Below, piece after piece: positions 27,149-62,559 of a stretch of 64,000 nt of DNA (positions within the stretch are counted from its first letter, which is position 1; every line of letters begins with the position of its first letter). The stretch lies in NCBI GenBank assembly GCA_048886685.1, contig JBHLKM010000013.1, positions 64,001-128,000 on the forward strand, in the 5' to 3' direction. Below the pieces are notes generated by a model that was not told the DNA's origin, made no database searches, and was given only the letters and a program-made list of their open reading frames with translations. The position numbers and the translations under genes were made by a program. Source of the stretch: Candidatus Hodarchaeota archaeon (GTDB taxonomy: Archaea > Asgardarchaeota > Lokiarchaeia > Sigyniarchaeales > SOKP01).

Positions 27149-28732
27149 TCACATAAAAGCAATAACAACATTAAACTTTTTAATTTCTGATTCTGCTAAT
27201 GCTTTTCCTAATGGACTCAGTGTAATTATGTCATTGCTTTTTATTTTGAGAGAAGTCAGTTTAATATTTGGGTCCTTTAATGAGGGCATATAGGGATTCC
27301 AATAGATTTCTTTAGTCATAGGATTTGTAATCATCCATAATTCTGAATCTAAGGTGTGTCCTGATATTTCCATTGCTTCGAATATATAACCTACATTTGC
27401 ATCAAATGGAACTACAATTTGAACATTTTCTTCGCCTTCTATTTTTCCACAGGCAAGACAATCATCCCTTTTCAGGATATTTAAGTGATCAAATTGACCA
27501 TATATGCCATTATAATTGACATATGGTGGATCCATTGGAGCACCAATATTTCGTCCATTAACTCTAAATAAAAGTTTTAGCGCTTCTTGAGATTGAATGC
27601 TAGAGATGACAGAGCTAACTGTTTGTATCGCAGCTATTTTATTTCCTAAAATATTTTCCATCTCCTCAAATTTATAATTCGGTCCGAATGTTTCTCTAAT
27701 ATTATTTTTCCAATCTTCAATTTGTTCTTCGGTTAAAGAATCTCTTTCTTCTAGAGGGACGTTCTCATCAAAAACTCTTTCTCTTAATTTTTCCAATTCC
27801 ATTTGGGCAATCTCTTTTAACTTAAGCACCTCATCATTTAAATTCAGATCTGGCTTATGACCATATTTTTTTTCAAATTCAACCTCAGCTTTAATAACAC
27901 AATGATTTCTGTTGCGGGGTAATCCTTTTAAAGTGCACGCAGCAACTAACTTATCATCAGCAGGAGGAATTGGAACTAAACACCTATAACATGGGGTTTG
28001 ATCTAATAATTCAGGTGCAAACTTCCAATCAAAAACCAATTCTATTTCTTTTCTTATTTTATTGACAATAGGATCGATTCTAGTGGATTTTATTCGCTCA
28101 ATTTCTTCTTCTAATAATTCAATTTCTCTTTGAGCTCTATAATAATCGGGATATTCAGTATCGGTAATTTCCCAAAGTCTTGCTTCTACTAAATTTTCGA
28201 TTTCATTTTCTCTGCTTTTATATTTTAATCCTCCACCCTCAGGAATTACGATTTGTACATGTCCTTCAAAACCAACTGTTCCTCCCTCAACCATAGGTTT
28301 TTTCATTCTAAGGCATATTTTATTCAAATCTAATCTAGCATTAAAATTATCTAACGCAGCAACAATAACATCTGATTCTTCATAAACTGACATAGGTAAT
28401 TTCTGAAGTTTTTCAAAATAAAAATCAACATTTAAATACGGATTCATTTCTTTCAATCGTTCTGCGGCAACTTCTGCTTTTGGGCGTCCTTCATCTCCAG
28501 GTCTAAATAGCATTTGACGCGATAAGTTAGAAGTCTCAATTGTGTCAAGATCGACTAATATCAATTTACCTATTCCCATGAGTGTAAAGTCTTTTGCAAT
28601 TTCGCATCCTAAAGCCCCAACTCCAACGATCATAATGCAACCATTATTGATTACTTCTTGATCCCATCCATCAATGAGCTGCTGTCGAGCATACATACGT
28701 GCTTTAACAATATCTTCGATTTTTTCAGTCAT
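27149..28732 (-). CDS. Ubiquitin-like activating enzyme E1 (Uba3/Uba2-type)
   Basis: YARQ, VGVGALGCE, DLDTIETSNLSRQ, CYRC/CLAC zinc pair, catalytic CTLKGLPRNRNHC, C-terminal UFD-like region. Confidence 0.92.
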   Translation of the reverse strand: MTEKIEDIVKARMYARQQLIDGWDQEVINNGCIMIVGVGALGCEIAKDFTLMGIGKLILVDLDTIETSNLSRQMLFRPGDEGRPKAEVAAERLKEMNPYLNVDFYFEKLQKLPMSVYEESDVIVAALDNFNARLDLNKICLRMKKPMVEGGTVGFEGHVQIVIPEGGGLKYKSRENEIENLVEARLWEITDTEYPDYYRAQREIELLEEEIERIKSTRIDPIVNKIRKEIELVFDWKFAPELLDQTPCYRCLVPIPPADDKLVAACTLKGLPRNRNHCVIKAEVEFEKKYGHKPDLNLNDEVLKLKEIAQMELEKLRERVFDENVPLEERDSLTEEQIEDWKNNIRETFGPNYKFEEMENILGNKIAAIQTVSSVISSIQSQEALKLLFRVNGRNIGAPMDPPYVNYNGIYGQFDHLNILKRDDCLACGKIEGEENVQIVVPFDANVGYIFEAMEISGHTLDSELWMITNPMTKEIYWNPYMPSLKDPNIKLTSLKIKSNDIITLSPLGKALAESEIKKFNVVIAFM

Positions 28733-42689: not shown

Positions 42690-42714
42690 GATGGTTCACC
42701 AATGAAATATAAAA

Positions 42715-43316: not shown

Positions 43317-44114
43317 TTGAAAGTATACAAAACACACTTTTCAGAAAAAGAATCTGACATAACTATTTTTTCAGAATCAAAAACTGCAATATTAAAAGCA
43401 AAACAAATTTTTTACATACATCGGAGAAGTTTAGAGAAATATGTGTCTAAAAATAATCTGTTTTTAACATCACTATCTCCTATTAAAGTGAATACGGAAA
43501 TAAAAATTATTAATCTAATGGCTGATGCTGCTTATATTTGTGATGTGGGTCCTATGGCTGCAGTTGCGGGTGCTCTAGCAGATCTTATGTTAGAGGCTAT
43601 GAAAAATGAAAATGAGGCAGAAGAGTCCGATTTTATTGAAGCTCAAATTGCTTTAGTTGAAAATGGTGGTGAAATAGCGGTAGATACTATAGAACCTATG
43701 AATATTGCGTTATTTGCTGGAAATAATGAATTAAATTTGAATATTGGATTCATAATTGAAAAAAAAGATTGTCCCCTTGGTATTGGAACAAGTTCTGCAA
43801 CAATTGGGCATGCTATTAGTTTTGGACAAGCTGATACAGTTACTATTTTTGCTACAAATGCAACTTTAGCTGATGCAGCGGCAACTAGAGTGGCAAATTC
43901 AGTAAAAGGAAAAGATGTTGAGAAATCAATAAAACTAGGATTAGATATTGCTGATGATATTGAGGGTGTCATAGGTACTTTCATTAGCAGGGATGATAAG
44001 ATAGGGCAAGCAGGCAAATTACCAAAATTGATGAAAATTGAAGGAGATAAAAGACAAATTTTACGAGGAAAAGTAGATGATAAATTTCTTGGAGATTATG
44101 AGATTTTTAAATGA
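43317..44114 (+). CDS. UPF0280 / ApbE-like protein
   Basis: VGPMAAVAGA, VENGGEIA, TSSATIGHAISFG.AD, ADAAAT. Confidence 0.92.
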   Translation: MKVYKTHFSEKESDITIFSESKTAILKAKQIFYIHRRSLEKYVSKNNLFLTSLSPIKVNTEIKIINLMADAAYICDVGPMAAVAGALADLMLEAMKNENEAEESDFIEAQIALVENGGEIAVDTIEPMNIALFAGNNELNLNIGFIIEKKDCPLGIGTSSATIGHAISFGQADTVTIFATNATLADAAATRVANSVKGKDVEKSIKLGLDIADDIEGVIGTFISRDDKIGQAGKLPKLMKIEGDKRQILRGKVDDKFLGDYEIFK

Positions 44115-46392: not shown

Positions 46393-46568
46393 TTCTCAAA
46401 TATACATTAAGGTAAATTTAAATTAAATTTTATCATAAAAAATCTCATATCCTATAAAAATATTCATAAAATTGAAATTCTGAGAAAAGCTATTATTTTT
46501 TTTCTTTTTAAATGCTTCTATGCTTCAAAATATAAAAATAGAGCAAAAAAATTTGGGTAAAGTTATTT

Positions 46569-47882: not shown

Positions 47883-47912
47883 ATTTTATTTCACTTAGCT
47901 AATTATTTTTTA

Positions 47913-48836
47913 TTATATTTTACCATCTTTTATTAATTCTTTAGCATATTCATAATCTTCTTCTGTATCCATCTCTACCCATTCTCTCTGAATATCAACT
48001 GAATGCATCGAATATCCTCGTAAAATAAGTTCTTCAATCATATCTGTTAAGTATGCTTTTTGCATTGTCGTTGCATCGTGAAATCTTCCCTCAAATTTAC
48101 AAGTTTTATTGTATTTCGCACGATTATAATTACGGATTAAGATTTCTGCACCTTTTTTTGTAAATTTACCAAGTCCTATGAATTCTCCATATGCAACATC
48201 TGGATTATAAAATTTTGATAGATTCTTTATTTTCCCGTGTTCTACAATAGCTAATTCAGCTTCGTCTGTAGGATGTTTCATACGTCCTTCATATCTTTTC
48301 CTCCAGTCAGTATCTATGATAAAACTAAAATCATGAGGTGAATCCAATAGTTTTTTAACGACATTTTTACTGTACAAGATATCTGAATAGGTGAAAATAA
48401 ATCCATCTTTCATTGCCTCCTCAGCATAAAACAAGGATTCGAGAATATTATTGTTATAATAATCATCATTATCATAGTATGTAATATTTGGTAAGTCAAT
48501 TTTTTCTTTTTGATATCCTCGAATAATTACAAAATCATCAAGACCAAAATATTTAAAATTATCCAAAGTCCGTTCAAGAATGCTTTTTCCTTCAATTTCT
48601 AATAAACACTTTGGTTTATATTCAGTTAGAGGTCTTAATCTTGTACTTGGGCCAGCAGCTATAATAATTACTTTCATCTCTTTTACATCTATATTTTCCT
48701 CATATCTTCTTACAACGCGCTCTAGAAGCGAAATGTGCTCATTGAATTTTTCAGATGTTTTTTTATATCCGACTTTTTTAACACTCTCATAAATCTTCTT
48801 AATTTCTTCAGGATCTGTATATTTTCGTGTCGGCAT
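47913..48836 (-). CDS. Phosphocholine/phosphonate cytidylyltransferase family (LicC/PntC-like) with N-terminal HTH-like extension
   Basis: AAGPSTRL...KPKCLL, YYNNNILESL, YSDI, GEFIGL, WVEMDT.EDY. Confidence 0.85.
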   Translation of the reverse strand: MPTRKYTDPEEIKKIYESVKKVGYKKTSEKFNEHISLLERVVRRYEENIDVKEMKVIIIAAGPSTRLRPLTEYKPKCLLEIEGKSILERTLDNFKYFGLDDFVIIRGYQKEKIDLPNITYYDNDDYYNNNILESLFYAEEAMKDGFIFTYSDILYSKNVVKKLLDSPHDFSFIIDTDWRKRYEGRMKHPTDEAELAIVEHGKIKNLSKFYNPDVAYGEFIGLGKFTKKGAEILIRNYNRAKYNKTCKFEGRFHDATTMQKAYLTDMIEELILRGYSMHSVDIQREWVEMDTEEDYEYAKELIKDGKI

Positions 48837-49116
48837 ATTTTTTTATGAATAGTTTGATAACTTCAAAAGTACACTTACCTATATAAACTTTTACAATTTT
48901 GATCTTCAACAAAAACTTTTATTAGATAGAAATCTATGAAATCTTATATAGGTAAGCTAATTAAATTTTCACTTAATTATTAGGTATTCTGATTATTATT
49001 TGCCTAAACTCAATTATATCATCATTCTTATTCAACAATCTATTAAAACTCTTAGGAGCGTCAAAAGAAATTTGTTTTTAATTAAATCGGATCTTTAAGA
49101 GGAATTCAAGAATTAG

Positions 49117-50619
49117 TTATTTGTAAAATTTTCTAATATGCTTATTAAAATATAGAGGGAAATACAAAATCCAGACCAGAATTTCCTTCCATCTTTGCAA
49201 TAGAAGTTTTCTTCGCTTGATTAAAGATCTGATTACAAATTTCAAATAACCTGTGTCTTTAATTTGATCTGATACATTATTTAATTCTGTATCTAATATT
49301 ATGAATTTTTTCGTGTATTTTTGATATTTCCTTCGTAATTTTTTTAAACCATAACCAGTCATTCTATTATAGATTAAGATCGTAATGAGACTGTAATTTT
49401 TAATGGAATTGAAAGTATTAACCTCAGATAATTTTATTATTTTATTTTTATTTTTTAGATTTTCTTTAAGAAATATTACTAATTGAGGAGGGAACTGGTT
49501 TGGAATTAGGATGTTCTCAGACTCTAGAGAAGCTAAGAAACTTTGATTATATATATCATTTAAAGTATTTTTTAATATTTCATAAGCTTTTTTTTCAGTT
49601 TTTAAATAGAATCGAAACATTTCATTAAAGATTTTTGGATTTGAATTCCTTAAATCTAATTTTTCCAATGGGTCTTCACTTAAATTATATAAAGTAAATT
49701 TTCCATTAATATTCAGAAGTTTCCACTCATCTTTGGTGATCATCGTTTTTTTAATCGTTTGAAACATTAAATAACAGTCTCCTCTTATTTTTCTTTCTTT
49801 ATTAACATCGTTGTCTTCCTCAATTAATTCCTTGAAAGAAATTGATTCTCTTTCATGACTTGCTTCGATATTTAAATAATCAAGAACAGTCTCCATAACA
49901 TCTATTAAATAAACTTGCCTTTCAATTGTTTTTGGTTGTGTTTTTGTTAAATTTGGTGGAATTTTAATAAATAAAATTGGGCGCATTGAAGATTGGTGAA
50001 TATCGTCGAAATGCATTATTTTTCTCTTTTTATATAAATTGTGATCATAATAACCATGATCAGAACTAAAAATGAAAATAGAATTATCCCATAAACTTTT
50101 ATCTTTAAAATAATCTATAGTTTTGTTTAAATATAAATCAGTATGAGGGTCACTTGCCCTGAAAAATAAAAGAAAGAAATTGTTTTCGCTAGGTATAAAA
50201 TGTTCCATTTTTTGGATGAAAATTTGATATACTTCCTTCGCATCTAACCAACGATCTCCCGGATATAAATTTTTAGTGTAATATGGATTGAGAATATTTT
50301 TAGTAATAATTACTTGTTCTCTTCCAAATATAATTGATTGGATATTGTAATTAGCTTTTTTCAAAGGAGAAATATTATTATCTTTAAAACTCGGAAGTTT
50401 ATCAATAGAACGATAATAATCAGGAATTAAGTAATAAGGGAATCGCCCAGTTAAAAATGAAAGAAGAGATAAGTTAGTTGATGGGAATTGAGAAATTGCA
50501 TTTTCAAAATAAAAGCCTTCCTTATTTTTTTTTAAACTATTGAAGACAGGAAGTAACCCATGTAAATCAGTTCTTTCATAATTGCAGATTCCATCAATTA
50601 TAATCCAAAAAATATTCAT
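49117..50619 (-). CDS. Alkaline-phosphatase/sulfatase-fold protein (Thr at the nucleophile position)
   Basis: IIIDG, QFPSTNLS...LTG, SSDHG, LYNLSEDPLE. Confidence 0.8.
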   Translation of the reverse strand: MNIFWIIIDGICNYERTDLHGLLPVFNSLKKNKEGFYFENAISQFPSTNLSLLSFLTGRFPYYLIPDYYRSIDKLPSFKDNNISPLKKANYNIQSIIFGREQVIITKNILNPYYTKNLYPGDRWLDAKEVYQIFIQKMEHFIPSENNFFLLFFRASDPHTDLYLNKTIDYFKDKSLWDNSIFIFSSDHGYYDHNLYKKRKIMHFDDIHQSSMRPILFIKIPPNLTKTQPKTIERQVYLIDVMETVLDYLNIEASHERESISFKELIEEDNDVNKERKIRGDCYLMFQTIKKTMITKDEWKLLNINGKFTLYNLSEDPLEKLDLRNSNPKIFNEMFRFYLKTEKKAYEILKNTLNDIYNQSFLASLESENILIPNQFPPQLVIFLKENLKNKNKIIKLSEVNTFNSIKNYSLITILIYNRMTGYGLKKLRRKYQKYTKKFIILDTELNNVSDQIKDTGYLKFVIRSLIKRRKLLLQRWKEILVWILYFPLYFNKHIRKFYK

Positions 50620-50785
50620 TTAGATACCTTCATAATATTTACTTTGCGAGAATTACTATTTTCATAAAGAAAATTTTTGAAAGGATAAAAACTTAATTCC
50701 TTTTTATTGAATAAGAGATTTAAAATAGCGAGGGAATATAAATTTAAAATCAACAATTAATTAATTGCTTCAATTTTCAAACTTT

Positions 50786-51898
50786 TTATTGCTTTAGACA
50801 TTTATCATAAATATTTAATACCGTTTGAGCACTTTCTTCCCAGGAATATAATTTAACGCGTTCCAATCCTTTTTTTATTAAAATATTTCGCAATTTATCA
50901 TTTTCTAGTACTTCTATCATTTTATTTGCTAATTCAACGTGATCAGAATTGTTTTTTAGAATTAATGCCGCATCTCCTACTATTTCTGGAATAGCAAAGG
51001 CGTTTGAAGTAATAACTGGACAACCACAAGCCATGGCCTCTAAATTGGGCATACCAAAACCCTCAAAAAAAGAAGGAAAAACAAACACTTCTGCCAAATT
51101 TAGAAGTCCAATAACATCTCTTCTAGGGATAAAACCAGGAAAAACAATATCATTAAGTAAATTTTGTTGTCTGGTAAATTCAATTACTTCTTTATTTTTC
51201 CATCCACTTCCTCCTAAAACTAATTTTATTGAATTTTCTTGTTTTTTTAGTATTTGAAATGCTTTTAGTAGTGTCCAGGGATTTTTTCTCATACTATACC
51301 TACTTAAATGAAAAATGAAAGGAGAATCTATGCCATATTTTTTTTTTAATTCTATTGGTTTTTTATTATAAACCTTGAAATCATCATCTACGGCATTATA
51401 TGTGAGATAGATTTTATCTTTATTTACTCGATAATAGTTTATAATCTGTCTTTTAGTAATTCGAGAAACAGTAAAAATATATTCCAATTTTCGCGCATAA
51501 TAAGGTCTAATTGTTTTGGCATGCAACCTTTTAATAATATTATATTTACGGGCAAAATAAAGTTCATATGCACCACCGCCATGAATTGTAGCAATCTTCT
51601 TCGGTTTTTTTAACCAGACAGGAGATAATATAGTTAAAGGAGAAAAATGTAATATATCAAATTTTTCTTTTCTGAGTTTAGAGGATGCGATAATTGGATT
51701 TTTAGATATGATCAATTCATCAGTTCTTTTATAAATCTCCTTATTATTCTTAGAATGGTGTATTAGAATTATGTTAAATCTATCATTAATATCCAAGATA
51801 CGATTTACTAGTTGCCTTAAATGACTACCACTTCCACTAGTTCCTTGATCTATTGGTTTAGTAAAAATACCAACTTTGGGTTTGTTATTTAACGGCAT
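50786..51898 (-). CDS. Glycosyltransferase family 4
   Basis: RKN, FVFPSFFEGFGMPNLEAMACG. Confidence 0.95.
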   Translation of the reverse strand: MPLNNKPKVGIFTKPIDQGTSGSGSHLRQLVNRILDINDRFNIILIHHSKNNKEIYKRTDELIISKNPIIASSKLRKEKFDILHFSPLTILSPVWLKKPKKIATIHGGGAYELYFARKYNIIKRLHAKTIRPYYARKLEYIFTVSRITKRQIINYYRVNKDKIYLTYNAVDDDFKVYNKKPIELKKKYGIDSPFIFHLSRYSMRKNPWTLLKAFQILKKQENSIKLVLGGSGWKNKEVIEFTRQQNLLNDIVFPGFIPRRDVIGLLNLAEVFVFPSFFEGFGMPNLEAMACGCPVITSNAFAIPEIVGDAALILKNNSDHVELANKMIEVLENDKLRNILIKKGLERVKLYSWEESAQTVLNIYDKCLKQ

Positions 51899-51931
51899 AT
51901 ATCTTCATTAATCTTAATTTGCTCACCAATT

Positions 51932-52744
51932 CTACTTAGATTGTTGAATGGCAATGATATCTTTTGTAATACTTCTTGATTTGATAATAATAAATGATGA
52001 AAAAACAAGAGACATAAACACAAAATAACAAATCATGATGATTTCTAATATCTGAAAATGACCAGAATATATAAATATTATATTCCCAACAAAAAACACT
52101 GTCGTAATGAGATGAGTATGACTAAAAGCATTGATAAGATTAAATATAATTTTTTTTATCAGCTTGAAAAAACTTTTTGAGGATTTTTCTTGGTTAACTT
52201 CTTCTTTTTGATTAATTATCTCTTTTACCTCTTTCTTGGTAGAAGCTATAATAGCTATCTTTCGAACCGTTCTTATTCCTAATATAAATATTGTCGTAAG
52301 AAAACCAAATATTATGTATAGAAATTCTGAATTAATTCTATAAATATTAAATCCAAAAGAAGAGAAAAAGCATCCCAAAAAGATAAAATGGCACACTTGA
52401 TCATAATACATCCCTTTTATTGACACCTGTTTTTTATATCTTGCTACTTCTCCATCGATTTCATCACTAAGAAAGTATAGATATAGTAAAATAAAACCAA
52501 CGATAATGAATAAGCTATTACCAAATCCTATAAATAATAACCCAAGTAAGCCAATCATACAACCAAAAATAGTGACGAAATTTGCAGTAATAGGCGTTTT
52601 TACTAAAATCCATGTTATATATTTGGATATAAATGTAAATGGATAATGCCACCAATCATTTCTTCTTTTTCTATCTTCCAGTTTTTTACCTTGAGTTATC
52701 TCTTTGAATTCTTTAAAGCTTTGAGATGTCATTTTAATCTTCAA
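51932..52744 (-). CDS. CDP-alcohol phosphatidyltransferase family protein
   Basis: ITANFVT, DEIDGEVAR....S..G.YYD. Confidence 0.88.
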   Translation of the reverse strand: MKIKMTSQSFKEFKEITQGKKLEDRKRRNDWWHYPFTFISKYITWILVKTPITANFVTIFGCMIGLLGLLFIGFGNSLFIIVGFILLYLYFLSDEIDGEVARYKKQVSIKGMYYDQVCHFIFLGCFFSSFGFNIYRINSEFLYIIFGFLTTIFILGIRTVRKIAIIASTKKEVKEIINQKEEVNQEKSSKSFFKLIKKIIFNLINAFSHTHLITTVFFVGNIIFIYSGHFQILEIIMICYFVFMSLVFSSFIIIKSRSITKDIIAIQQSK

Positions 52745-53041
52745 TTTTTCTTTAATGATTCAATAAAATGATTTTAAACATAATAATTAACTTGAAATAA
52801 AATCAATTAGAAAACTTGAAATCCTACTGATTTTTGTTGTGAATCTAATCATTCAAATTTACCTTGAATCTTATTATTCTCCTATATAATGCAGAAAAAT
52901 ATTTTAAAAATATATTTTTTATTAATTTGGTTCTAATTACATTCTGAAACTTTAAGATTCATAAAATCATAAATTTAATTTTATAATAACAATTCCCAAT
53001 TTAAAATAATTTAGATTCTGCAATTCTTTTTAATTCTTGCA

Positions 53042-54691
53042 ATGTCAATTGAAGATAATAACCCATTACATGACAATAAAGAGTATAAAAATCTAGCTAG
53101 GAACACTTTTTATGCTTTTTTAATGAATTATGGATCACATTTTTTTACATTTATAATCTCTTTTCTATTGGCACGATTGATTACAGATGCAAATTGGCAA
53201 TTCCTAATATTAGCACTCTCTTATATGGCAATTATTACAATTATAACCTCATTATTACCACCAGGTCAAGATTATTCCCTGAATTATTATATTCCAAGAT
53301 ATCTTGCTTTAAATCAAAAATCAAAAATCAAATCTTTGATTAAAAATGCATTTATTATAAAAATTTTATTTCTAATTCCTGTTTTTATTGTAAGTATCAT
53401 CATCTTTTCTGTTTTTGCTGATATTTTCGCAATTAATTTGGAGACAAAAGTAGTTCTTTTATATATTTTATCACCCGTCATTATCACCAATGGATTAACT
53501 AAAATATTGGATGCTATTAACCGAGGTTTTAGTAGGTTCAAATTGCTATTTATTTTATTGATGGTGAAAAATGCTTTTCACATCACACCTCTATTTCTTT
53601 ACTACTTCTTCAGAATTGGCATTACTGTAGAAACTATTGCACTAATATATATGATATCCTACTTGATTCCTTTTAGCTTAAACCTCTTATTCGTAATAAA
53701 AAAAGTTTATAATATTGAATCAATAAAAAGTGAAAAAGAATCATTGAAAGAAGATTTCAACAAAGCTATTAGATATGGTAGCTTTATAGGATTTTCTAAT
53801 ATTATTGCAAGACTTTGGAAAGAAGCACAGTTTCAAGGAATTGGCTTTTTTGAATCACCAGGTGCGGTAACAGGATACAACATTGCTTGGAATTATAAAG
53901 ATATAGGAGCCTATTCGGTACATTCATTCAATCTTCCCTTATTAACTTCATTTACCAGTCTAAATACTAAAGAGAATTACGATCAAATTAAGAAGATTTT
54001 TAAGGTTTCATATAAAATTACACTATTTTTATTATTAATAATAGCTGGTTTCTTATTTTTTAGTGTAGATTTTCTAATAGATTTTATTTTTTTAGAAACC
54101 CGACTCGTTTATTCAATATTTCTCAAATTAATGTTAATAGCGACAGTATTTAGTGTTTTAGAGAAATTCGTTCAAAATCTCTTAAATTCAAGTAATAAAG
54201 TCAAAATACCTTTTCTGTTAAAAATATTTGATATGTCCTATTCTGTACCACTCTTCTTCATTGGACTGATATATTTTGGAGTTGAGGGAGCTATAATCTT
54301 TGGATTGATAATAGGATTTATTATATCTACAATAATCCAAATCATAGCAACTCGAAGATTTGGAAATGTTACGCTAAATATTAGGAAGATTTTTGTTCAA
54401 TATTTATCATTCTTTATACCTTTGGGTATAACTATGGTTTTTGAATTCTTATTATTCAAGAGAATGAGTTTTAGAATAATCGAAGGTCTAGGACTCTCAC
54501 TCTTTAAAAACTTTGATTTTTTTTCAATAGGAACCTTTATTATACTCTTCGTTTCAATGAATTTAGTTTTAAAAACAGTTACCTCTGCCGATATCGAAAT
54601 CTTTGAGTCCCTTTTAAATAAAGATCGATCTATTGATAGAATTCTAATTAAAGGTCTTAACCTTTTAAAAAAATTTACAAGAAAACAGTAA
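53042..54691 (+). CDS. Oligosaccharide flippase (Wzx/MOP family)
   Basis: About 14 TM segments, LARN.F, LARL, GYNIA. Confidence 0.85.
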   Translation: MSIEDNNPLHDNKEYKNLARNTFYAFLMNYGSHFFTFIISFLLARLITDANWQFLILALSYMAIITIITSLLPPGQDYSLNYYIPRYLALNQKSKIKSLIKNAFIIKILFLIPVFIVSIIIFSVFADIFAINLETKVVLLYILSPVIITNGLTKILDAINRGFSRFKLLFILLMVKNAFHITPLFLYYFFRIGITVETIALIYMISYLIPFSLNLLFVIKKVYNIESIKSEKESLKEDFNKAIRYGSFIGFSNIIARLWKEAQFQGIGFFESPGAVTGYNIAWNYKDIGAYSVHSFNLPLLTSFTSLNTKENYDQIKKIFKVSYKITLFLLLIIAGFLFFSVDFLIDFIFLETRLVYSIFLKLMLIATVFSVLEKFVQNLLNSSNKVKIPFLLKIFDMSYSVPLFFIGLIYFGVEGAIIFGLIIGFIISTIIQIIATRRFGNVTLNIRKIFVQYLSFFIPLGITMVFEFLLFKRMSFRIIEGLGLSLFKNFDFFSIGTFIILFVSMNLVLKTVTSADIEIFESLLNKDRSIDRILIKGLNLLKKFTRKQ

Positions 54692-54718
54692 AGATAATAG
54701 TTGTGAACTTGATTACAC

Positions 54719-55900
54719 TCACCATTCCGGAGACTTGTTTCCTATTAATTTATAATTAACTTCAAAAGTTTTAATATTATTCTCCCATAGATATTCTTCT
54801 TCAATTTTTCTTATTCCATTTTCTTTAAATTTTTTTCGTAGATTTTCGTCCTTTAGAAGTCTTTCTATAGACATTGCGTAGCATTTGTAATTTTCAGTTT
54901 CACATAGAAGCCCGTTTTTCAAATGAGTAATTAAATCTCTTGTACCCGTAATATTACTTGTTACTATTGGAACTTGATAAATCATTGCTTCCATTAAAAC
55001 ACCAGCTAAGCCCTCACCTCTACTGGGAAGAAAAAATATATCTGCTATTTTATAAAAATTATGAACATCAAATCTATTCCCTACAAATATGACTTTGTCA
55101 TCTAAACCAGAATTAGAGACAGATTTAATAGATTTTTCTCTCTCAGGTCCATCGCCGACCACTAAAAATTTGATATTTTTATCCTTTAATAACTGAGCAG
55201 TTTTTATGATTAAGTCAATGCCCTTCCTTTTATTAATATGTCCTACAAATAAAACTATTTTATCACTATGTTTAATATTAAAAACTTCTCTGATATCTTT
55301 ATCTGGAGTCTTTGTATCTAAATTGATCCCTGTAGGAGTAACTCTTACTTTATTCTCAGGGACTCTTATCTTTTCTGTATATTTGAGAAAGGAATTCCCA
55401 TAAACTGTTATATAATTGGAAGCGAAAAATGCAAGTTTTCCTATGGTTCTATAAAAAATTTTAAATAACACATCTAAGACATTAGATATCTTAAAAGAAT
55501 AGGAAGGGATTGTATCCATAGTAAGAATTAATTTTTTTTTTTTAAAAAATAAGATTTTTAACATGCAGATTGAAAATGTATTTGGATAGAATGGGACCCA
55601 AACATGTATTATATCATTTTCCTTTAAAATCTTCCAACTTTTTTTAAAAAACTCCCAGTTAGTAGGAATAGGCCAAATATAACCAGAAGATTTCGTCCAG
55701 ATAGGATATGTTAATAGGTTAATTCCTTTAAAATTGTCGTAATGTCTAGATTCTTTTCTCTTTATATCAGATTTTTTTCTTGGTGTTAAAATTGATACAC
55801 TATAATCTTTTTCCTTTAAAATATTCATTATGGCAGAAATTGGTCTTCTGATGTGAATACCAGTATTCACAAAACATATTCTTTTGTATTGTTTGCTCAC
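54719..55900 (-). CDS. Glycosyltransferase family 4
   Basis: RKG, VVGDGPE, PSRGEGLAGVLMEAM. Confidence 0.93.
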   Translation of the reverse strand: MSKQYKRICFVNTGIHIRRPISAIMNILKEKDYSVSILTPRKKSDIKRKESRHYDNFKGINLLTYPIWTKSSGYIWPIPTNWEFFKKSWKILKENDIIHVWVPFYPNTFSICMLKILFFKKKKLILTMDTIPSYSFKISNVLDVLFKIFYRTIGKLAFFASNYITVYGNSFLKYTEKIRVPENKVRVTPTGINLDTKTPDKDIREVFNIKHSDKIVLFVGHINKRKGIDLIIKTAQLLKDKNIKFLVVGDGPEREKSIKSVSNSGLDDKVIFVGNRFDVHNFYKIADIFFLPSRGEGLAGVLMEAMIYQVPIVTSNITGTRDLITHLKNGLLCETENYKCYAMSIERLLKDENLRKKFKENGIRKIEEEYLWENNIKTFEVNYKLIGNKSPEW

Positions 55901-55955
55901 AAATAAGGAAAAGAATTATGAAATATTTATATTATTCTTTTTAAATACATTATGT

Positions 55956-56747
55956 CTAACTATTTTTTATTGCTTTAATTAAGACAATTGGATTAATATC
56001 TTTTAAAAAGTTAATTGGGACAAATCTTGTTCTTATAATTTTAAAACGTAAGCCTATTTTGCGTTTGATAACTCTCCAATCAAAATTTTTATGTCCAGTC
56101 TCTCTCGCATATTCTTTATGTCCTATATATTCAGGTCTTATTTTTGGTCTTTTTAAAATGATAATTCGAATCAGTTCTTTTAAACCATATTTTGGTCTTT
56201 TGAAATTAACCATTTTCCCTATCATAGTCCTTATTAATAAAGAAATGCCAATTTCAACAGGAAGAGTGCAGATTAATATTCCGTTTCTTCTTAAAACGCG
56301 AAAAACTTCATTTATAAATTGATCTGGATTTTTTACATGCTCTAAAACTTCAAGACAAAAAACTAAATCAAATTTATTATCTCTAAATGGTAATGCTTGA
56401 CCATCTGAGCAAGCTAAATTAATCTTTTTTACATTTTTTAATTTATTATCAACTAAATTTTTTGATTCTCTAATAAATTCTTCATTTATATCATTGGCAA
56501 CAATTGATCTTGCATATTGATTCAGAGTTGGTAAAAATGGTCCATCAGCACAACCAATATCGAGAACTCGGGAATGTTCTGAAAATCTTATGTACTTTAA
56601 CGAAAAAACAAAAGGAAGATAGGCATAATACCTAATTAGAAATGATTTGGAGTTATACAAATAACAAGAGTATTGATCTTTTAAAGATTCATCATTGCTA
56701 CCATCTGCGGGTACCCTAATAATTCTATATTTTTCCCGTAATTTCAT
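55956..56747 (-). CDS. Class I SAM-dependent methyltransferase
   Basis: VLDIGCADG, LPF.D..FDLVFCLEVLEH, RVLR.NG. Confidence 0.92.
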   Translation of the reverse strand: MKLREKYRIIRVPADGSNDESLKDQYSCYLYNSKSFLIRYYAYLPFVFSLKYIRFSEHSRVLDIGCADGPFLPTLNQYARSIVANDINEEFIRESKNLVDNKLKNVKKINLACSDGQALPFRDNKFDLVFCLEVLEHVKNPDQFINEVFRVLRRNGILICTLPVEIGISLLIRTMIGKMVNFKRPKYGLKELIRIIILKRPKIRPEYIGHKEYARETGHKNFDWRVIKRKIGLRFKIIRTRFVPINFLKDINPIVLIKAIKNS

Positions 56748-56778
56748 ATTAAATAATAACTGAGAAATTTTCTTTTTA

Positions 56779-57747
56779 TTAATTTTTATCTATCTCTATT
56801 TGCCATTCATAAGTTTTTCTTAAGCCCTCATCAATAGGAACTTGAGGGGAATAATTTAAAACTTTGGTTGCTTTTGTAATATCTGCATGAGTTATGTCCA
56901 TATCTCCTTTTTTCTTTTCTTTATATTTAACTCTCTTAGGCTTATTAGTAATATCATAAATTTTGTTTACTAATTGATTAATACTTATTGGATTAGACAA
57001 ACCCAAGTTAAATGCTTGACCTGAAGATTCTTTTATTTCAGACGCTAATATTAATCCATTTATGATATCTGAAATATAAGTAAAGTCTCTCAATTGTTCT
57101 CCATCTCCGTATATTATTAATTCTTTATTCTGTAAAACTAAGTTAAAAAATTTTCCCACAACCATATCTGGTCTTCCTCTAGGTCCGTATACGGAGTAAA
57201 ATCGAAGTGAGGTTATAGGTGTTGAATATTCTCTAAAATAATAATCTGCATAAATCTCACCGCATAATTTTGATAAACCATAGGGACATATCGGATTTTT
57301 TGGATGATCTTCATCTACAGGGGTATAAGTTGGATTACCATAAACTGTAGAAGATGATGCATAAACAAACTTTTTAATATCTTTATTTTTTATAAATTCT
57401 AAAAGATTTAATAAACCTCCTATATTATTCCTAGTAACTTGTTCAGCATTGTGCATTGAATATTGTACTCCCGCATGAGCAGCAAGGTGGAAGACGATAT
57501 CAATTTTATCTGAAATTTTGCTATAAATTGAGTTATCTAATAAATCACCTTTGATTAAATTATACTCTTTTATATTTTCATAATCTTGCGTAACACTTGC
57601 TAAATTTTCTTCTTTTCCGGAATAATAACATTGATTAAAGTTATCAATCATCTCAATATAATTATTTTCTTGTATAAGGGTCTTAAAAAGATGCGTTCCA
57701 ATAAATCCTGCTCCACCTGTAATTAATACATTTTTATTTTTTATCAT
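56779..57747 (-). CDS. NAD-dependent nucleotide-sugar epimerase/dehydratase
   Basis: TGGAGFIG, HLAA.AGV, YGLSK, VYGPRGRPDM. Confidence 0.95.
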   Translation of the reverse strand: MIKNKNVLITGGAGFIGTHLFKTLIQENNYIEMIDNFNQCYYSGKEENLASVTQDYENIKEYNLIKGDLLDNSIYSKISDKIDIVFHLAAHAGVQYSMHNAEQVTRNNIGGLLNLLEFIKNKDIKKFVYASSSTVYGNPTYTPVDEDHPKNPICPYGLSKLCGEIYADYYFREYSTPITSLRFYSVYGPRGRPDMVVGKFFNLVLQNKELIIYGDGEQLRDFTYISDIINGLILASEIKESSGQAFNLGLSNPISINQLVNKIYDITNKPKRVKYKEKKKGDMDITHADITKATKVLNYSPQVPIDEGLRKTYEWQIEIDKN

Positions 57748-58032
57748 TTTAACTTAAAGTTTAATATTTTAACTAAAAGATTATATAATATATTAAAATA
57801 AAATTTTAAGCAGTCTTTAAAGATTACCTAATAAATATTTGGCTTCATGGAAATTTTAAGAGATTAAAAGTCTTTTGTTAACTATTAGGATTATAATTTT
57901 TTAAATTTTTGACTTAATAGCAATAAATTGTATTTGGGATTCGAACTTAAGAAAAATTTAAGTTTTTCAAATTTTTTTTAATAATAATTAAAAAGTTTTT
58001 GAAATTTTCAAATTTCTACAAATTCTAACACA

Positions 58033-59571
58033 ATGGAGAAGCCAAACATTATTTTAATAATTCTGGACACTTTTAGAGCAGATAAACTCTTAACTAACAA
58101 TGAGGGTAGAGAATTAACCCCTTTTATTAAAACTTTAATGAAAAACTCATATTATTTTGAAAATTGCATAGCTAATAGTCCATGGACAGTACCATCTCAT
58201 ATTAATATATTTACAGGACTGTATGCAACTCAAATGAAAAATTTGACTAAAAAGGTTGATACCCTTGGTAATAAAATTCCAGTTTTAACTGAAATTCTTA
58301 AAGATTGGGGATACCATACAATCTGTTTCACAGAAAATCCCCACATTAATAAAAAGGAGGGCTTTGCAAGAGGTTTTGAAATATTCATTGATAATTGGCA
58401 GAGTTTTTTAACACATCCCAAAAGATTCTGGGTGGATCGAATTGAAAAAATCCTTCCAATCTCAAAAATTGCATCTCGAGTTAGTACCTATATAAAGAAA
58501 AGAATAGAATCTTCGGACGTTATTCTATTTAAAATAAAAAAAATATTAAAAAATTTAAAAAATCAATTATTTTGGAAAAAAATTCTTTCGAATAAAACAA
58601 CAACTCTCGATCAATTAGAAAAAATAGGAGATATATTAAAAAAAAAAAATAATACAAACCCATTTTATCTTTTTTTAAACATAATGGCGACGCATTATCC
58701 TTATGTTCCTACAAGACAAATTCTTAATAAGTTTAAAATTAGAAATAAGCAAATAAAGACCATTAGGAATTTTCTTCTAACAAATCCTAAAGATCTTATA
58801 AATTTAACAGAATCTAAACCTTTATCGGAAAATAAAATTGATATAATTAAAAAATTATACAATACAAGTGTATTTTACGCTGATCAAATAGTAAAAGAAT
58901 TATTCTCAATTTTAGAAAATCTCGGTTTATTAGAAAACTCATATGTAGTTATTACATCCGATCATGGAGAACATTTATGTGATGAATCAGATCATTTCTT
59001 ATGTGATCATACAACATATTTCAGTCTATATGAATCTCTATTACGGGTACCCCTACTTATATATCATAAAAATTATAAAAATAAAGTTATCAAGAATCAG
59101 GTACAATTGAAAGATCTTTATCATACTATTCTTTCATTTACAAATCATAACTCAACTAATATTAAGTATTTTAAAAAAGAAAAATCACTATTATATCAAA
59201 TTGAAACTAATTCTACTCCAAAATTTATTTTGGGGGAATATTTGAAACCAAAAAATAAAGTATATAATTTAATTCATAGATATCGAAATATTATAAAAAA
59301 GAATCTAATCTCTAAGATAATAAATGATGTGTACTTTCTGAGAACTGAAAAATTAAAATTTATTGATTTTAATTCAATAAAGGAATTATATCAAATAGAA
59401 ACTGATCCTCAAGAGCGATTTAATATTACAGGCAAAAATCTTAAAGTTCAAAAAGAGATAAAAAAGGCCTATGACTTAATTAAAGAAAAAATTAATAAGA
59501 AAGAAGATTTAATAGAATTGACTACAGAAAAAGAAAAAGATTTAATTAAGAGAAGTATTAAATTACTCTAA
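58033..59571 (+). CDS. Sulfatase-like hydrolase/transferase (Thr at the nucleophile position)
   Basis: LDTFRAD, NSPWTVPSH..FTG, ATHYPY, TSDHGE. Confidence 0.88.
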   Translation: MEKPNIILIILDTFRADKLLTNNEGRELTPFIKTLMKNSYYFENCIANSPWTVPSHINIFTGLYATQMKNLTKKVDTLGNKIPVLTEILKDWGYHTICFTENPHINKKEGFARGFEIFIDNWQSFLTHPKRFWVDRIEKILPISKIASRVSTYIKKRIESSDVILFKIKKILKNLKNQLFWKKILSNKTTTLDQLEKIGDILKKKNNTNPFYLFLNIMATHYPYVPTRQILNKFKIRNKQIKTIRNFLLTNPKDLINLTESKPLSENKIDIIKKLYNTSVFYADQIVKELFSILENLGLLENSYVVITSDHGEHLCDESDHFLCDHTTYFSLYESLLRVPLLIYHKNYKNKVIKNQVQLKDLYHTILSFTNHNSTNIKYFKKEKSLLYQIETNSTPKFILGEYLKPKNKVYNLIHRYRNIIKKNLISKIINDVYFLRTEKLKFIDFNSIKELYQIETDPQERFNITGKNLKVQKEIKKAYDLIKEKINKKEDLIELTTEKEKDLIKRSIKLL

Positions 59572-59963
59572 AATAAATTCCCAATTTTATTGTTTGCTTA
59601 ATTCCATCATAGAAACTTTTTCTATTGAAAATAGTCGAGCTGGACCATCTCTCTAAAAATAACGAAAAGAGTTATAAAATTTTTAAATTACTATTTTCAA
59701 GAAGAAATTGAAAGCCTTAGTATATAATTAGCTAAACTTAAATTTAGTTAAAAAAGTATTAATTAAAGTGCACCTCGTTAAGTCTATGGGAATATCAAAC
59801 GCAGAAAATTATTAAGAAGACTATTAAATAAAGATTTAATTATTAAAATAAAATTATTTTTTATATTACGGAATATTTTAACAAATATCAAAACTTTAAT
59901 AATTAATTTAAGGAAAAATAATTACATAAATATCCTCCTTTAAGTTTTAATGGGGTTTCTATA

Positions 59964-60800
59964 TTGAAGACGACGTTGCCATCTGAGAATACAGAACATC
60001 GCATAAAAAAAAACAATGTAAAATCAAGTAATATAAATTATCTTTTTCCTGGATTAAAAGTTGGTATAATAATTCCTGCTTTTAATGAAGAAATGAATAT
60101 TGGGGGAACATTAGCCCAAATTCCTAAAAATATATCTGAAGAATTGGAGATTATTGTTGTAGACGATGGCTCATCTGATAATACAATTTCAATTGCTAAT
60201 AAATACAACATCACTCTTTTAAAACACCCAAAAAATCGGGGTAATGGTGCTGCAACTAAAACAGGATTAGAATTTTGTAAAGATAGGGATCATAAAATTG
60301 CTATCATACTGGATGCTGATGGTCAACACAATCCAAAATATATAAGTGATTTTATAATACCTATTATGGAGGATAGTATAGAATTTGTAATAGGTAATCG
60401 ATTTCAACATTATTATAATATGGATATCAACAGGAAATTATGTTCGAAATTGATGACAGCCTTCTATTTCTTGTTCTTGCATAGAAAGATAGCAGATCCT
60501 ACAAATGGTTATAGAGCTTTATCTTCCGAGTTAATACAAAATCTTGAATTTGAATCTGAATATTCTCTTACCCAAGAAATGCTTTTTAAAATTGTGCCTA
60601 CTTATAAATATAAGCAAATTCCGATAAAAGTAAATCCGAGAGGTCAAGGAGAATCTTTTATAAAAATTAAAAATTATTTACTCAAAATAGTATTACTATT
60701 TATAAAGTTCTATATTTTTCCCAAAATTAAGAGATTAACTCACAAAATCTTAAGTGAAGAGTTCAGAAATAGAGTCAAAACATATTATTTGAAAACTTAA
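59964..60800 (+). CDS. Glycosyltransferase family 2 (DPM1-like)
   Basis: IPAFNEE, VDDGSSDNT, LDADGQH, DPTNGYRA. Confidence 0.93.
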   Translation: MKTTLPSENTEHRIKKNNVKSSNINYLFPGLKVGIIIPAFNEEMNIGGTLAQIPKNISEELEIIVVDDGSSDNTISIANKYNITLLKHPKNRGNGAATKTGLEFCKDRDHKIAIILDADGQHNPKYISDFIIPIMEDSIEFVIGNRFQHYYNMDINRKLCSKLMTAFYFLFLHRKIADPTNGYRALSSELIQNLEFESEYSLTQEMLFKIVPTYKYKQIPIKVNPRGQGESFIKIKNYLLKIVLLFIKFYIFPKIKRLTHKILSEEFRNRVKTYYLKT

Positions 60801-60924: not shown

Positions 60925-62559
60925 GTGAGAAATAACTTGGATAAACAACGAATTCTAAGGGAAGCTCAAAGAATAGCAAAAGAATTCTCTTTTTGGATGG
61001 TTTCTGGAAATATTGCTCATCTGTATGGATATATTTATGAAACTCCAGAGAAAAAATTTGAATTAGAGATAAAATTTGATGAAACATTTCCAAATAATCC
61101 CCCTCAGTTGTTATATCATAGTGAGATTAAGGAATTATTAGGAGAAATTCAATTAGAAAGATATAAAAATTGGACACCAGAATCTAAAGTTGTTGATATC
61201 ATAAATGAGCTTAAGCTTAAAATTCAAGAAGCGATACAAATTCCTAAAACAATATCAGAAGAAGAATTGAGTCCCATAAAGACTAGTGAAAAATCTAATG
61301 ATTTTTTAGAGCCTGAAGAATATATTAATCCAGATCTAAATGCATACCCTCCAGATTATCAAACAGAAGATTATATAATACCTTCAGAATCTAATAACAA
61401 TTTATTGAATGATTTATCGGAAAGTGATGAGGAAAGATCGAATGATGAGCCTTTTTATGATGGGAGTGAGCAATTAAGCTTAGAATTGACAACAGAATTA
61501 GGATTGATTCAACAAGAGTATGCTTATGACCAAGAAGGTTCAAGGGCTTCTCAAATTAATGTCTATATTACAATTACACTCACAAAAACCTTTATTGTCG
61601 CTATTGATTTTACCAATTTTCCTCAGAAGCCAAAAATTTCATTAACTGATGAAGTTATAGATATTATAAAAGACCCAAATACTTCATTAACTACATTGAG
61701 CACCTGGAATTCAAAAAAGCCTCCTCATATTGTAGATGTAATACGTGAGTTGGAAAAGAAACTCTATTTCATTAAAGATATAGAATCTCAATACAAAAAT
61801 ATATCTGGAGAATATCGGTGTACAAAAACTTCAGATAGTTTAACTATTATAAATGTACATCTACTTACATACGGATTTAAGGAATATTCTGTAAAGGTGG
61901 ATTTAGAACCTTATCCTAAACCCCCTACAGTAGAATTACCTATTGAGCTTCAACAAATCATCAATAAACCAATTCAAGAATTAAACGCTTATAAAAATTG
62001 GATAGATAATGATTCTAATGTAGTAGAAATAATAAGAGAGATTTCTTGGCTAGTAGATAAAAATTCTCGAATCAATTTTGAAATTGATCTTCTAAAAGAT
62101 CATTATAAAAACATAAGATTTGAACCCTCAGCGGCAATTTTACATGTTGAGATGGAAGGAAAAATGAAAACTGAAGATCTCACTTTTGAATTTCAAATTA
62201 ATTTACCTCCAGATTACCCTATGAAAATGCCTGAAGTGAAAGTTATAAATGAATTTGAAATAGAAGCTCATGAGAAAATAAAAAATGATTTACATGTCTC
62301 ATTTAATAACTTTTTCAAAGAATGGACCCCTTTTAGTTATCTTGTTGATTTATTTAATTTAATTTCAAAGAAAATTTTCGAAGTTTCAGTAGTATCATGT
62401 GTAATATGTCACAAAATTGAATGCCCAAGTTGTACAAAAAAAATCGCTGGTGAAGATAGTTGTCATATAGAGTGCCCACATTGTAACAGAGCTTACCATC
62501 GTCACTGTTGGGAACAAACAATACAATCATTTGGCAAATGTGGTTTCTGTCTCAGATAA
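60925..62559 (+). CDS. Four E2-like (UEV/RWD) domains plus C-terminal C4HC3 RING-type finger; FANCL-like candidate E3 ligase
   Basis: Four (F/Y)PxxPP-like motifs, each followed by W....(V/I/L)V(D/E)(I/V/L); no HPN/Cys active site; ends CVIC...CPHCNRAYHRHCW...CGFC. Confidence 0.75.
   Translation: MRNNLDKQRILREAQRIAKEFSFWMVSGNIAHLYGYIYETPEKKFELEIKFDETFPNNPPQLLYHSEIKELLGEIQLERYKNWTPESKVVDIINELKLKIQEAIQIPKTISEEELSPIKTSEKSNDFLEPEEYINPDLNAYPPDYQTEDYIIPSESNNNLLNDLSESDEERSNDEPFYDGSEQLSLELTTELGLIQQEYAYDQEGSRASQINVYITITLTKTFIVAIDFTNFPQKPKISLTDEVIDIIKDPNTSLTTLSTWNSKKPPHIVDVIRELEKKLYFIKDIESQYKNISGEYRCTKTSDSLTIINVHLLTYGFKEYSVKVDLEPYPKPPTVELPIELQQIINKPIQELNAYKNWIDNDSNVVEIIREISWLVDKNSRINFEIDLLKDHYKNIRFEPSAAILHVEMEGKMKTEDLTFEFQINLPPDYPMKMPEVKVINEFEIEAHEKIKNDLHVSFNNFFKEWTPFSYLVDLFNLISKKIFEVSVVSCVICHKIECPSCTKKIAGEDSCHIECPHCNRAYHRHCWEQTIQSFGKCGFCLR

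What the first reader, a model, noticed from the sequence alone, without database searches (positions are those of the whole stretch)
60925..62559. FANCL-like archaeal E3 candidate: four tandem E2-fold domains plus a C4HC3 RING
Seen: four units of about 95-105 aa. Their core motifs are FDETFPNNPP, FTNFPQKP, LEPYPKPP and LPPDYPMKMP, each followed by a W-x4-6-VVDII-type helix. None has the HPN/Cys of an active E2. Unit 1 is set off by an acidic linker and units 2-4 are contiguous. The protein ends (from 62398) in CxxC...CxxC-x4-HxxCW-x8-CxxC, with an extra CPSC/C that may bind further zinc. Established: FANCL is built of E2-like folds (ELF + double RWD) plus a C4HC3 RING. Inference: a stand-alone archaeal E3 with FANCL-like architecture, possibly working with the E1 and E2 encoded in this window.
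Basis: partly seen in the sequence, partly recalled or inferred. Interest (0 to 1): 0.85.

Follow-up and report, generated by a model that had tools for sequence, protein, structure and literature searches.

The report
Asgard four-pseudo-E2, three-zinc RING ligase
An Asgard archaeon encodes a protein with four inactive copies of the ubiquitin-carrier (E2) fold and a three-zinc RING finger, so it is probably a ubiquitin ligase built like the human enzymes FANCL and Listerin, although neither its activity nor shared ancestry with them is shown.

Summary
Observation confirmed. The gene (60925/60937-62559, +) encodes four mutually homologous E2/RWD-fold units with no active-site Cys, and an acidic linker after unit 1. 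The C-terminal finger is a RING, not a PHD: all 50 listed VIA-align matches are RING/U-box folds, best Listerin, then FANCL among others. Its four spare ligands (C500, C503, C513, H527) align with Rbx1's third zinc site and co-vary. The gene is common and usually single-copy in Lokiarchaeia, beside a tRNA-synthetase gene, with no ubiquitin genes nearby (0/75 loci). Its conserved core is three units plus RING, the FANCL order. At 4 of 13 distant loci it adjoins E1 or whole Ubl/E1/E2/JAB operons, and the window's E2 (24370) groups with those operon E2s. Best reading: a multi-RWD RING E3 ligase (about 0.7). Against: the RING lacks the usual helix Trp and an in-register linchpin, co-folding with the E2 is only weak support, and there is no FANCL-specific sequence signal. 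FANCL-like in layout; membership unproven (about 0.2). No paper describing it was found. This scan has already reported the family several times on other genomes.

The parts
60925..62559 (+). Gene for the four-pseudo-E2 RING protein (544 aa from GTG; probable start TTG 60937, 540 aa)
   Evidence: ORF list; 330 homologues; model mean pLDDT 85.6
60937..61242 (+). Unit 1 (res 5-106): Cys-less UBC/UEV-like fold; Gln76 at the E2 catalytic position; absent from most distant relatives
   Evidence: Pfam UQ_con 42-97; Rad6 alignment; VIA-align Z about 10-11 to E2s; domain map
61243..61473 (+). Acidic, mostly disordered linker (res 107-183), variable in length
   Evidence: 29% D+E; pLDDT <50 at 108-136 and 144-180
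61315..61350 (+). Conserved short motif in the linker (res 131-142, consensus EEYITPDLNAYP); candidate docking peptide (inference)
   Evidence: P136 and P142 invariant; E132, D137, L138, Y141 at least 90% conserved in 51 homologues
61474..61767 (+). Unit 2 (res 184-281): Cys-less UBC/RWD-like fold
   Evidence: hhalign to units 1 and 3, probability 99%; same helix/strand order in the model
61768..62055 (+). Unit 3 (res 282-377): UBC/RWD-like fold without catalytic Cys
62056..62388 (+). Unit 4 (res 378-488): RWD-like fold leading into the RING, as in Listerin
   Evidence: Pfam RWD 374-479 and UBC_like PF23009; VIA-align Z 11.4 to RWDD1, residues 380-544 onto Listerin RWD-RING Z 8.8, rmsd 9.2
62398..62550 (+). 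C4HC3 RING finger: C492, C495, C517, C520, H525, C528, C539, C542
   Evidence: Invariant in 92 homologues except C517 (at least 90%); model pLDDT 94.5; best match yeast Listerin RING Z 7.1, rmsd 1.8, 52 aligned; FANCL RING Z 5.5
62422..62505 (+). Rbx1-type insertion with probable third zinc site: C500, C503, C513, H527
   Evidence: Profile aligns these four positions to Cys/His of Rbx1, E 1.4e-5; position 527 is His/Cys in 37 of 38 fingers with the insert and in 0 of 9 without; Rbx1 third zinc is 3 Cys + 1 His (PMC5462531)
24370..24888 (+). Active-type E2 (HPN and Cys92); most likely cognate E2 (inference); unlinked, 36 kb away
   Evidence: Pfam UQ_con 2e-26; 50% identical to the operon E2 of L083; groups with L076 and L083 operon E2s at 100/88
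27149..28732 (-). E1-like (ThiF/UBA-type) enzyme; candidate upstream enzyme; unlinked
   Evidence: Sequence; N-terminal part 46-53% identical to operon E1s of L076 and L083
62717..64000 (+). Class I aminoacyl-tRNA synthetase (IleRS-like), the usual downstream neighbour; probably not functionally linked
   Evidence: Pfam tRNA-synt_1; in 57 of 75 homologue loci plus the window

Best explanation
A single-chain RING-type E3 ligase of the Asgard ubiquitin system. Likely mechanism: (1) an E1 activates a ubiquitin-like protein and loads the E2; the genes are shown in the genome, the chemistry is established for archaeal homologues. (2) The C-terminal three-zinc RING binds the loaded E2, most likely the window's E2 at 24370, via loop 1 (I494), helix 526-536 and loop 2 (F541); the fold is shown, binding is inferred. 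(3) The contiguous dead E2-fold units 2-4 act as a platform that holds the substrate and perhaps ubiquitin, as FANCL's RWD domains do (inferred from own knowledge of FANCL). (4) Unit 1 on its acidic tether, with the conserved linker motif, is a lineage-specific extra binding or autoinhibitory module (speculative). The substrate is unknown.
For: Units are UBC/RWD folds without catalytic Cys. All 50 listed VIA-align matches of the finger are RING/U-box folds, led by Listerin and including FANCL; profile hits are Rbx1, Pirh2, Arkadia and RNF4. Whole-protein Foldseek ranks FANCL (E 3e-8), BRE (7e-7) and Listerin (9e-5) first. RING-bearing relatives adjoin ubiquitin genes at 4 of 13 distant loci: Ub-E1-E2-JAB (L076), Ubl-E1-E2-JAB (L083), E1 (L116), Ub-E2-E1 with JAB nearby (L119). 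The host genome has at least 2 E1s, 2 E2s, several Ubls and JABs. The loop-1 Ile is kept in 77 of 92 homologues; the equivalent Ile is essential in the Caldiarchaeum RING E3 (PMC5654768). RING + window E2 co-fold: weak support, score 0.40 against best control 0.00, runs agree in at least 85% of contacts, partner pLDDT at least 85. The mark was reached by 58 of 80 solved complexes and 2 of 110 mismatched pairs, but at 0.60 or under by only 7 solved complexes and both mismatches; RING-E2 is a textbook pair, so the pass may be from memory.
Against: No activity data. By register counting (inference), the helix position that is Trp in c-Cbl/FANCL-type RINGs is Thr (76/92), the loop-2 Pro is Gly (78/92), and the residue right after the last Cys is Leu (81/92), with Lys/Arg one place later (79/92); Trp and Arg mutants impair the Caldiarchaeum E3 (PMC5654768). 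None of 75 close loci has E1, E2, Ubl or JAB genes in its flanks, and 9 of 13 distant loci lack them. RING-less tandem-unit relatives also sit in ubiquitin operons (L120), so the units have a role without a RING. The genome holds at least five other C4HC3-type finger proteins that could be the working E3s.
Confidence: 0.7

Rival explanations
1. A non-catalytic scaffold or ubiquitin reader in the style of BRE/BABAM2: the tandem UEV/RWD units bind ubiquitin-like proteins, E2s or JAB deubiquitinases, and the RING is structural or works only as the silent half of a heterodimer.
For: BRE is the third Foldseek hit (E 7e-7) and Pfam BRE matches 9 of 92 members. The RING lacks the usual Trp, Pro and in-register linchpin. 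RING-less relatives occur in Ubl operons (L120), and the same unit is fused to a JAB domain (P0238). Some RING folds among the matches are not known as stand-alone ligases (TFIIH p44; own knowledge).
Against: The RING with all eight core ligands is retained in every full-length member examined, with a conserved loop-1 Ile. RWD followed by a C-terminal RING is the layout of active ligases (FANCL, Listerin). Weak co-folding support with the E2 (with its caveats).
Confidence: 0.22
2. A protein-interaction module that has left the ubiquitin system in Lokiarchaeia and now serves another process (for example translation, given the synthetase neighbour, or Roadblock/GTPase signalling).
For: 0 of 75 close loci have ubiquitin genes nearby; the steady neighbour is a tRNA synthetase. 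Two distant loci put it behind a Roadblock gene (L082, L124). The unit is also fused to longin and ABC-like domains.
Against: Lokiarchaeia keep a full, dispersed ubiquitin system, including the orthologue of the operon E2. The synthetase gene is 157 bp downstream, and several loci lack it or carry it on the other strand.
Confidence: 0.08

Closest known systems
FANCL (Fanconi anaemia core-complex E3; ELF + double RWD + C4HC3 RING; PDB 3k1l, 3zqs, 7kzp_L)
   Same: Three contiguous Cys-less E2 folds then a C-terminal C4HC3 RING, about 360 aa. Top Foldseek hit (E 3e-8). VIA-align maps residues 190-544 onto FANCL 3-364 (Z 9.4, 300 aligned, rmsd 24.6). Nearest eukaryotic clusters by language-model features, 0.90-0.92.
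   Different: A fourth unit and an acidic linker; a third zinc site; 11-14% identity and TM 0.19-0.28; no FANCL Pfam model hits the query; the units are still recognisably homologous to one another; no FANCD2 match listed in the genome (uninformative control).
Listerin/Ltn1 C-terminal RWD-RING module (PDB 8aaf_e, 9gy4_F)
   Same: Best structural match of the finger (Z 7.1, rmsd 1.8, 52 aligned); unit 4 + RING align to its last 160 residues (Z 8.7-8.8, rmsd about 9); unit 4 hits PF23009, the model carried by Listerin clusters.
   Different: No HEAT-repeat arm; four units rather than one RWD next to the RING; a third zinc; no evidence for ribosome binding.
Rbx1/Rbx2/Apc11 three-zinc RING
   Same: Best sequence-profile match of the finger (E 1.4e-5); the four extra ligands align one to one; Rbx1 binds a third zinc with 3 Cys + 1 His (PMC5462531).
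   Different: The core here is C4HC3 rather than RING-H2; no cullin-binding strand, the RING is fused to RWD units; no cullin match listed in the genome (uninformative control).
BRE/BABAM2 (tandem UEV/RWD scaffold of BRISC and BRCA1-A; PDB 6gvw_C, 6h3c_C)
   Same: Several tandem dead E2 folds (E 7e-7; residues 182-490, Z 8.4, rmsd 15.6).
   Different: BRE has no RING.
Archaeal small RING E3s (Caldiarchaeum srfp, PMC5654768; Helarchaeia RING E3 of UEV-Vps23, 10.1101/2023.07.25.550441); Pfam Prok-RING_1
   Same: RING proteins in archaeal Ub-E1-E2 operons, shown to be active in vitro; Prok-RING_1 matches weakly (E 0.002, below cut-off).
   Different: Those E3s are not described as carrying tandem E2-fold domains; the single UEV in UEV-Vps23 is on the substrate.

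Membership tests
UBC/RWD superfamily, non-catalytic | Helix, beta-meander, YPxxxP-type turn and following helices | tested here: met
   Model; Pfam UQ_con and RWD above cut-off; VIA-align Z 10-11.5, rmsd 2-3.5 for units 1 and 4; units 2 and 3 by homology to them and by double-RWD matches (Knl1, Z 10.3)
UBC/RWD superfamily, non-catalytic | No HPN and no catalytic Cys | tested here: met
RING finger | Eight Cys/His ligands in RING spacing with a central helix; RING rather than PHD fold | tested here: met
   (all 50 listed rows RING/U-box)
RING E3 ligase | E2-binding surface (loop-1 Ile, helix Trp, loop-2 Pro) and linchpin residue | tested here: inconclusive
   Ile kept; Trp, Pro and linchpin positions differ by register counting; co-fold weak, 0.40 vs 0.00
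RING E3 ligase | Promotes ubiquitin transfer from E2 to a lysine | not testable with these tools
   needs an in vitro assay
FANCL | Three E2-like folds followed by a C4HC3 RING | tested here: met
   Core of units 2-4 + RING in about 20 distant members; the query has one more unit
FANCL | Match to FANCL-specific profiles (FANCL_d1-d3, FANCL_C) | tested here: not met
   None for the query at E up to 1; FANCL_d1 in only 4 of 92 members, best E 2e-4; FANCL_d3 no match in the genome; FANCL not in the best 60 PDB profile hits
FANCL | Same three-dimensional arrangement of domains | tested here: inconclusive
   TM 0.19-0.28, rmsd about 25, but the model's inter-domain packing is uncertain (pTM 0.60)
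FANCL | Acts in the Fanconi core complex on FANCD2/FANCI | tested here: inconclusive
   No FancD2 match, but the control also rang nowhere
Listerin/Ltn1 | Long HEAT-repeat body before RWD-RING | tested here: not met
   544 aa fully accounted for by four units, linker and RING
Rbx1/Apc11 | Third zinc site in the RING insertion | tested here: met
   Alignment and covariation; zinc binding itself not measured
Rbx1/Apc11 | RING-H2 core on a small cullin-binding protein | tested here: not met
   Fourth ligand is Cys520; the RING is fused to unit 4

The most novel reading that the evidence does not exclude
The three-unit + RING core is the archaeal orthologue of the ancestor of FANCL, and possibly of the RWD-RING end of Listerin and the three-zinc RING of Rbx1, so that multi-domain E3 ligases with built-in substrate-binding domains existed before eukaryotes.
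Probability: 0.2. Interest if true: 0.85.

Novelty: new variant of a known kind. Interest (0 to 1): 0.62.

Why it matters
The archaeal E3s characterised in the papers I read are small RING proteins. A conserved Asgard RING protein that carries its own tandem RWD platform would show that the eukaryotic way of building ligases (catalytic RING plus substrate-binding domains) has archaeal precedent. It gives a concrete candidate for the archaeal non-catalytic E2 from which RWD domains and FANCL were proposed to radiate (PMC6601020), and the whole Ubl-E1-E2-JAB-E3 operons at L076 and L083 make the claim directly testable in vitro. If it arose independently, it is still a clear case of convergent ligase architecture.

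Tried and rejected
PHD finger: rejected; no PHD among the 50 listed VIA-align rows, PHD hits in Foldseek have rmsd about 6-7 and in the profile search rank far below RINGs. Active E2 or E2-E3 fusion: rejected; no HPN or catalytic Cys in any unit. Prok-RING_1 register, with C500/C503 as the first ligand pair: rejected in favour of C492/C495, from the Rbx1 alignment and structural alignments that start at model residues 1-5. Sequence bridge to FANCL: profile searches of the PDB and of 1.84 billion representatives (the hits I inspected were archaeal) gave none. A word-index search with the divergent alignment returned only two input proteins, which is uninformative. Genomic linkage to the window's E1/E2: none. 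Promoter/terminator scan: nothing above chance, and the scan is bacterial-type. Expression: no RNA holder listed. FancD2 and cullin searches: blank with blank controls. Literature: seven searches; FANCL + Asgard and RWD + Asgard returned only PMC6601020, which mentions one Asgard RWD-like sequence whose identity I could not check (no supplement held). The 2026 structural-clustering preprint has no RWD, Fanconi or BABAM mention. Subscription papers are not searched. The unit tree has 106 columns and many unresolved forks, contains no eukaryotic sequences, and was used only for the E2 grouping and the unit-4 cluster.

Full report
Observation. The ORF 60925-62559 (+) encodes 544 aa; database copies are 540 aa, so translation probably starts at TTG 60937. 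The pattern occurs four times, against at most once in 5000 shuffles. Profiles of the four units match one another (hhalign 94-99%, E 1e-7 to 6e-22; units 1-3 closest, unit 4 more distant). There is no HPN. The one Cys before the finger, C299, is in the first strand of unit 3 and is kept in only 44 of 92 homologues. In unit 1 the E2 catalytic position is Gln76. The linker 107-183 is 29% acidic and disordered in the model, apart from a conserved 12-residue motif at 131-142.

Fold of the units. Pfam gives UQ_con (6e-11) and RWD (3e-7) above cut-off. The AlphaFold2 model (92 sequences, mean pLDDT 85.6, pTM 0.60) shows four units with the same order of helix, three-stranded meander, short strand and helices; units 2-4 are contiguous. 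Units 1 and 4 align to E2, UEV and RWD domains at Z 10-11.5. Foldseek ranks FANCL first (E 3e-8), then BRE/BABAM2 (7e-7) and Listerin (9e-5), but with TM 0.16-0.28 and rmsd up to 25. So the match to FANCL is in domain type and order, not in a shown common shape.

The finger. Folded alone it is confident (pLDDT 94.5). All 50 listed VIA-align matches are RING or U-box folds: yeast Listerin Z 7.1 (rmsd 1.8, 52 aligned), human Listerin 6.2, FANCL 5.5. These Z values are modest, as expected for 59 residues; the uniformity of the list carries the point. A profile of 60 fingers hits Rbx1 best (E 1.4e-5) and aligns C500, C503, C513 and H527 onto the extra Cys/His of Rbx1, whose third zinc is held by three Cys and one His (PMC5462531). 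Position 527 is His or Cys in 37 of 38 fingers with the insert and in none of 9 without it; three further rows were not classified by the script, five of the nine are other finger proteins of this genome, and kin are not independent. The core ligands are therefore C492, C495, C517, C520, H525, C528, C539, C542 (C4HC3), plus a probable third zinc. The E2-binding surface is only partly canonical: I494 is kept (77/92), but by register counting the helix Trp is Thr, the loop-2 Pro is Gly, and the basic residue lies one place after the usual linchpin position.

Distribution and context. There are 330 homologues, named Promethearchaeota and related Asgard labels where named. The finger profile finds a match in 44 of 67 genomes of the host family, nearly always once. 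The three-unit core profile also finds relatives in two other families of the class and in all 6 genomes of one more distant family, and none above the threshold in most other Asgard families searched. One relative is labelled Thermoplasmata and one carries an automatic name 'E3 ubiquitin-protein ligase'. Close homologues sit among glycosylation genes, upstream of an IleRS-like gene in most loci; none of 75 has E1, E2, Ubl or JAB genes in its flanks. Distant relatives mostly have three units plus RING in 350-430 aa, the FANCL count and order. Four of 13 distant RING-bearing loci adjoin ubiquitin genes: first gene of a Ub-E1-E2-JAB-RING run (L076), last gene after Ubl-E1-E2-JAB (L083), directly upstream of an E1 (L116), and convergent with Ub-E2-E1 (L119, a two-unit form). 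A RING-less form heads a Ubl-E1 pair beside E2 and JAB (L120). The host genome has at least two E1s, two E2s, several Ubls and JABs. The window's E2 is 50% identical to the L083 operon E2 (the other genome E2, 31%) and groups with the L076 and L083 E2s at 100/88.

Binding prediction. RING plus window E2 with three zinc ions: weak support, score 0.40 against best control 0.00; runs agree in at least 85% of contacts, partner pLDDT at least 85. The mark was reached by 58 of 80 solved complexes and 2 of 110 mismatched pairs, but at 0.60 or under by only 7 solved complexes and both mismatches. RING-E2 is a textbook pair, so the pass may reflect likeness to solved structures.

Mechanism. Shown: dead E2 folds, a RING fold, recurrent operon linkage in relatives, and a full ubiquitin system in the host. 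Established elsewhere: archaeal E1/E2/RING cascades are active (PMC5654768; 10.1101/2023.07.25.550441). Inferred: the RING binds and activates E2~Ubl, and units 2-4 present substrate. Speculative: unit 1 and the linker motif regulate or add binding. I put the E3 reading at 0.70, a non-catalytic scaffold or silent RING at 0.22, and a role outside ubiquitylation at 0.08.

Relation to known systems. It is built like FANCL, and FANCL clusters are the nearest eukaryotic neighbours by language-model features (0.90-0.92, one source of evidence, no alignment). Membership is not shown: no FANCL-specific profile matches the query, the units are nearer to E2 enzymes in sequence, and the finger is nearer to Listerin in fold and Rbx1 in sequence. 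The unit is a mobile Asgard module, also fused to JAB, longin and ABC-like domains, and the finger is also fused to membrane and LRR proteins, so independent assembly of the same layout is quite possible. I give orthology with FANCL about 0.2. PMC6601020 proposed that FANCL and other RWDs radiated from an archaeal non-catalytic E2 and noted one Asgard RWD-like sequence; I could not check whether it is this family.

Novelty and score. I found no paper describing a multi-RWD RING protein in archaea in the library searched. The scan's own notes report this family several times on other genomes; they are not independent evidence. Verdict: a real, conserved new variant of the RWD-RING ligase kind; interest 0.62.

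Noticed in passing
P0178, P0179, P0182; P0205: The same three-zinc finger ends proteins with beta-helix (NosD) repeats and an apparent membrane segment, and an LRR protein: candidate membrane-anchored or LRR RING ligases.
   Followed up: partly
P0238, P0239, P0201, P0209, P0218: The pseudo-E2 unit is fused to a JAB domain, a longin domain, an ABC-like domain and longin-like N-termini in other proteins.
   Followed up: partly
L115:3923-7022 (G000:C1:129922-133021): A second ubiquitin-type operon in the host (Ubl, E1, E2, JAB). Its Ubls end in STAG, not GG; a second such Ubl and a membrane protein ending in a Ubl-like domain lie just upstream.
   Followed up: partly
G000 C4:251424, C19:53251, C13:36361, C33:3834, C1:246018, C27:28093: At least five other C4HC3-like finger proteins in the genome, including a VWA-like protein with two fingers and a long coiled-coil protein.
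   Followed up: no
L082:5240-7284; L124:5213-7290: Three-unit relatives sit behind a Roadblock/LC7 gene and an orphan 91-95 aa gene, near archease, RtcB and small GTPases.
   Followed up: partly
L083:6001-8076; P0143, P0166, P0168: A lineage with an extra N-terminal finger; its four-unit forms may have gained their first unit independently of the Lokiarchaeia form (weak tree support). One member is labelled Thermoplasmata.
   Followed up: partly
L119:1920-11754: Cluster of JAB, Ubl, E2, E1, three finger proteins and an SMC-like ATPase; L084 also has an SMC gene 5 kb away.
   Followed up: no
L023:1534-1905: A 123-aa truncated copy of unit 1 plus the linker motif lies 4 kb upstream of an intact gene.
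   Followed up: no
window 37656-38180, 40746-43206, 28865-35233, 21327-22544: A Rab-like GTPase, a longin/Arf-like GTPase next to a roadblock-like gene, a 2122-aa charged helical-repeat protein beside the E1, and a histone-deacetylase-like gene, judged from sequence only.
   Followed up: no
window 44107-60800: The gene closes a long cell-surface glycosylation cluster (glycosyltransferases, sulfatases, flippase-like and epimerase genes) whose content varies among relatives.
   Followed up: partly
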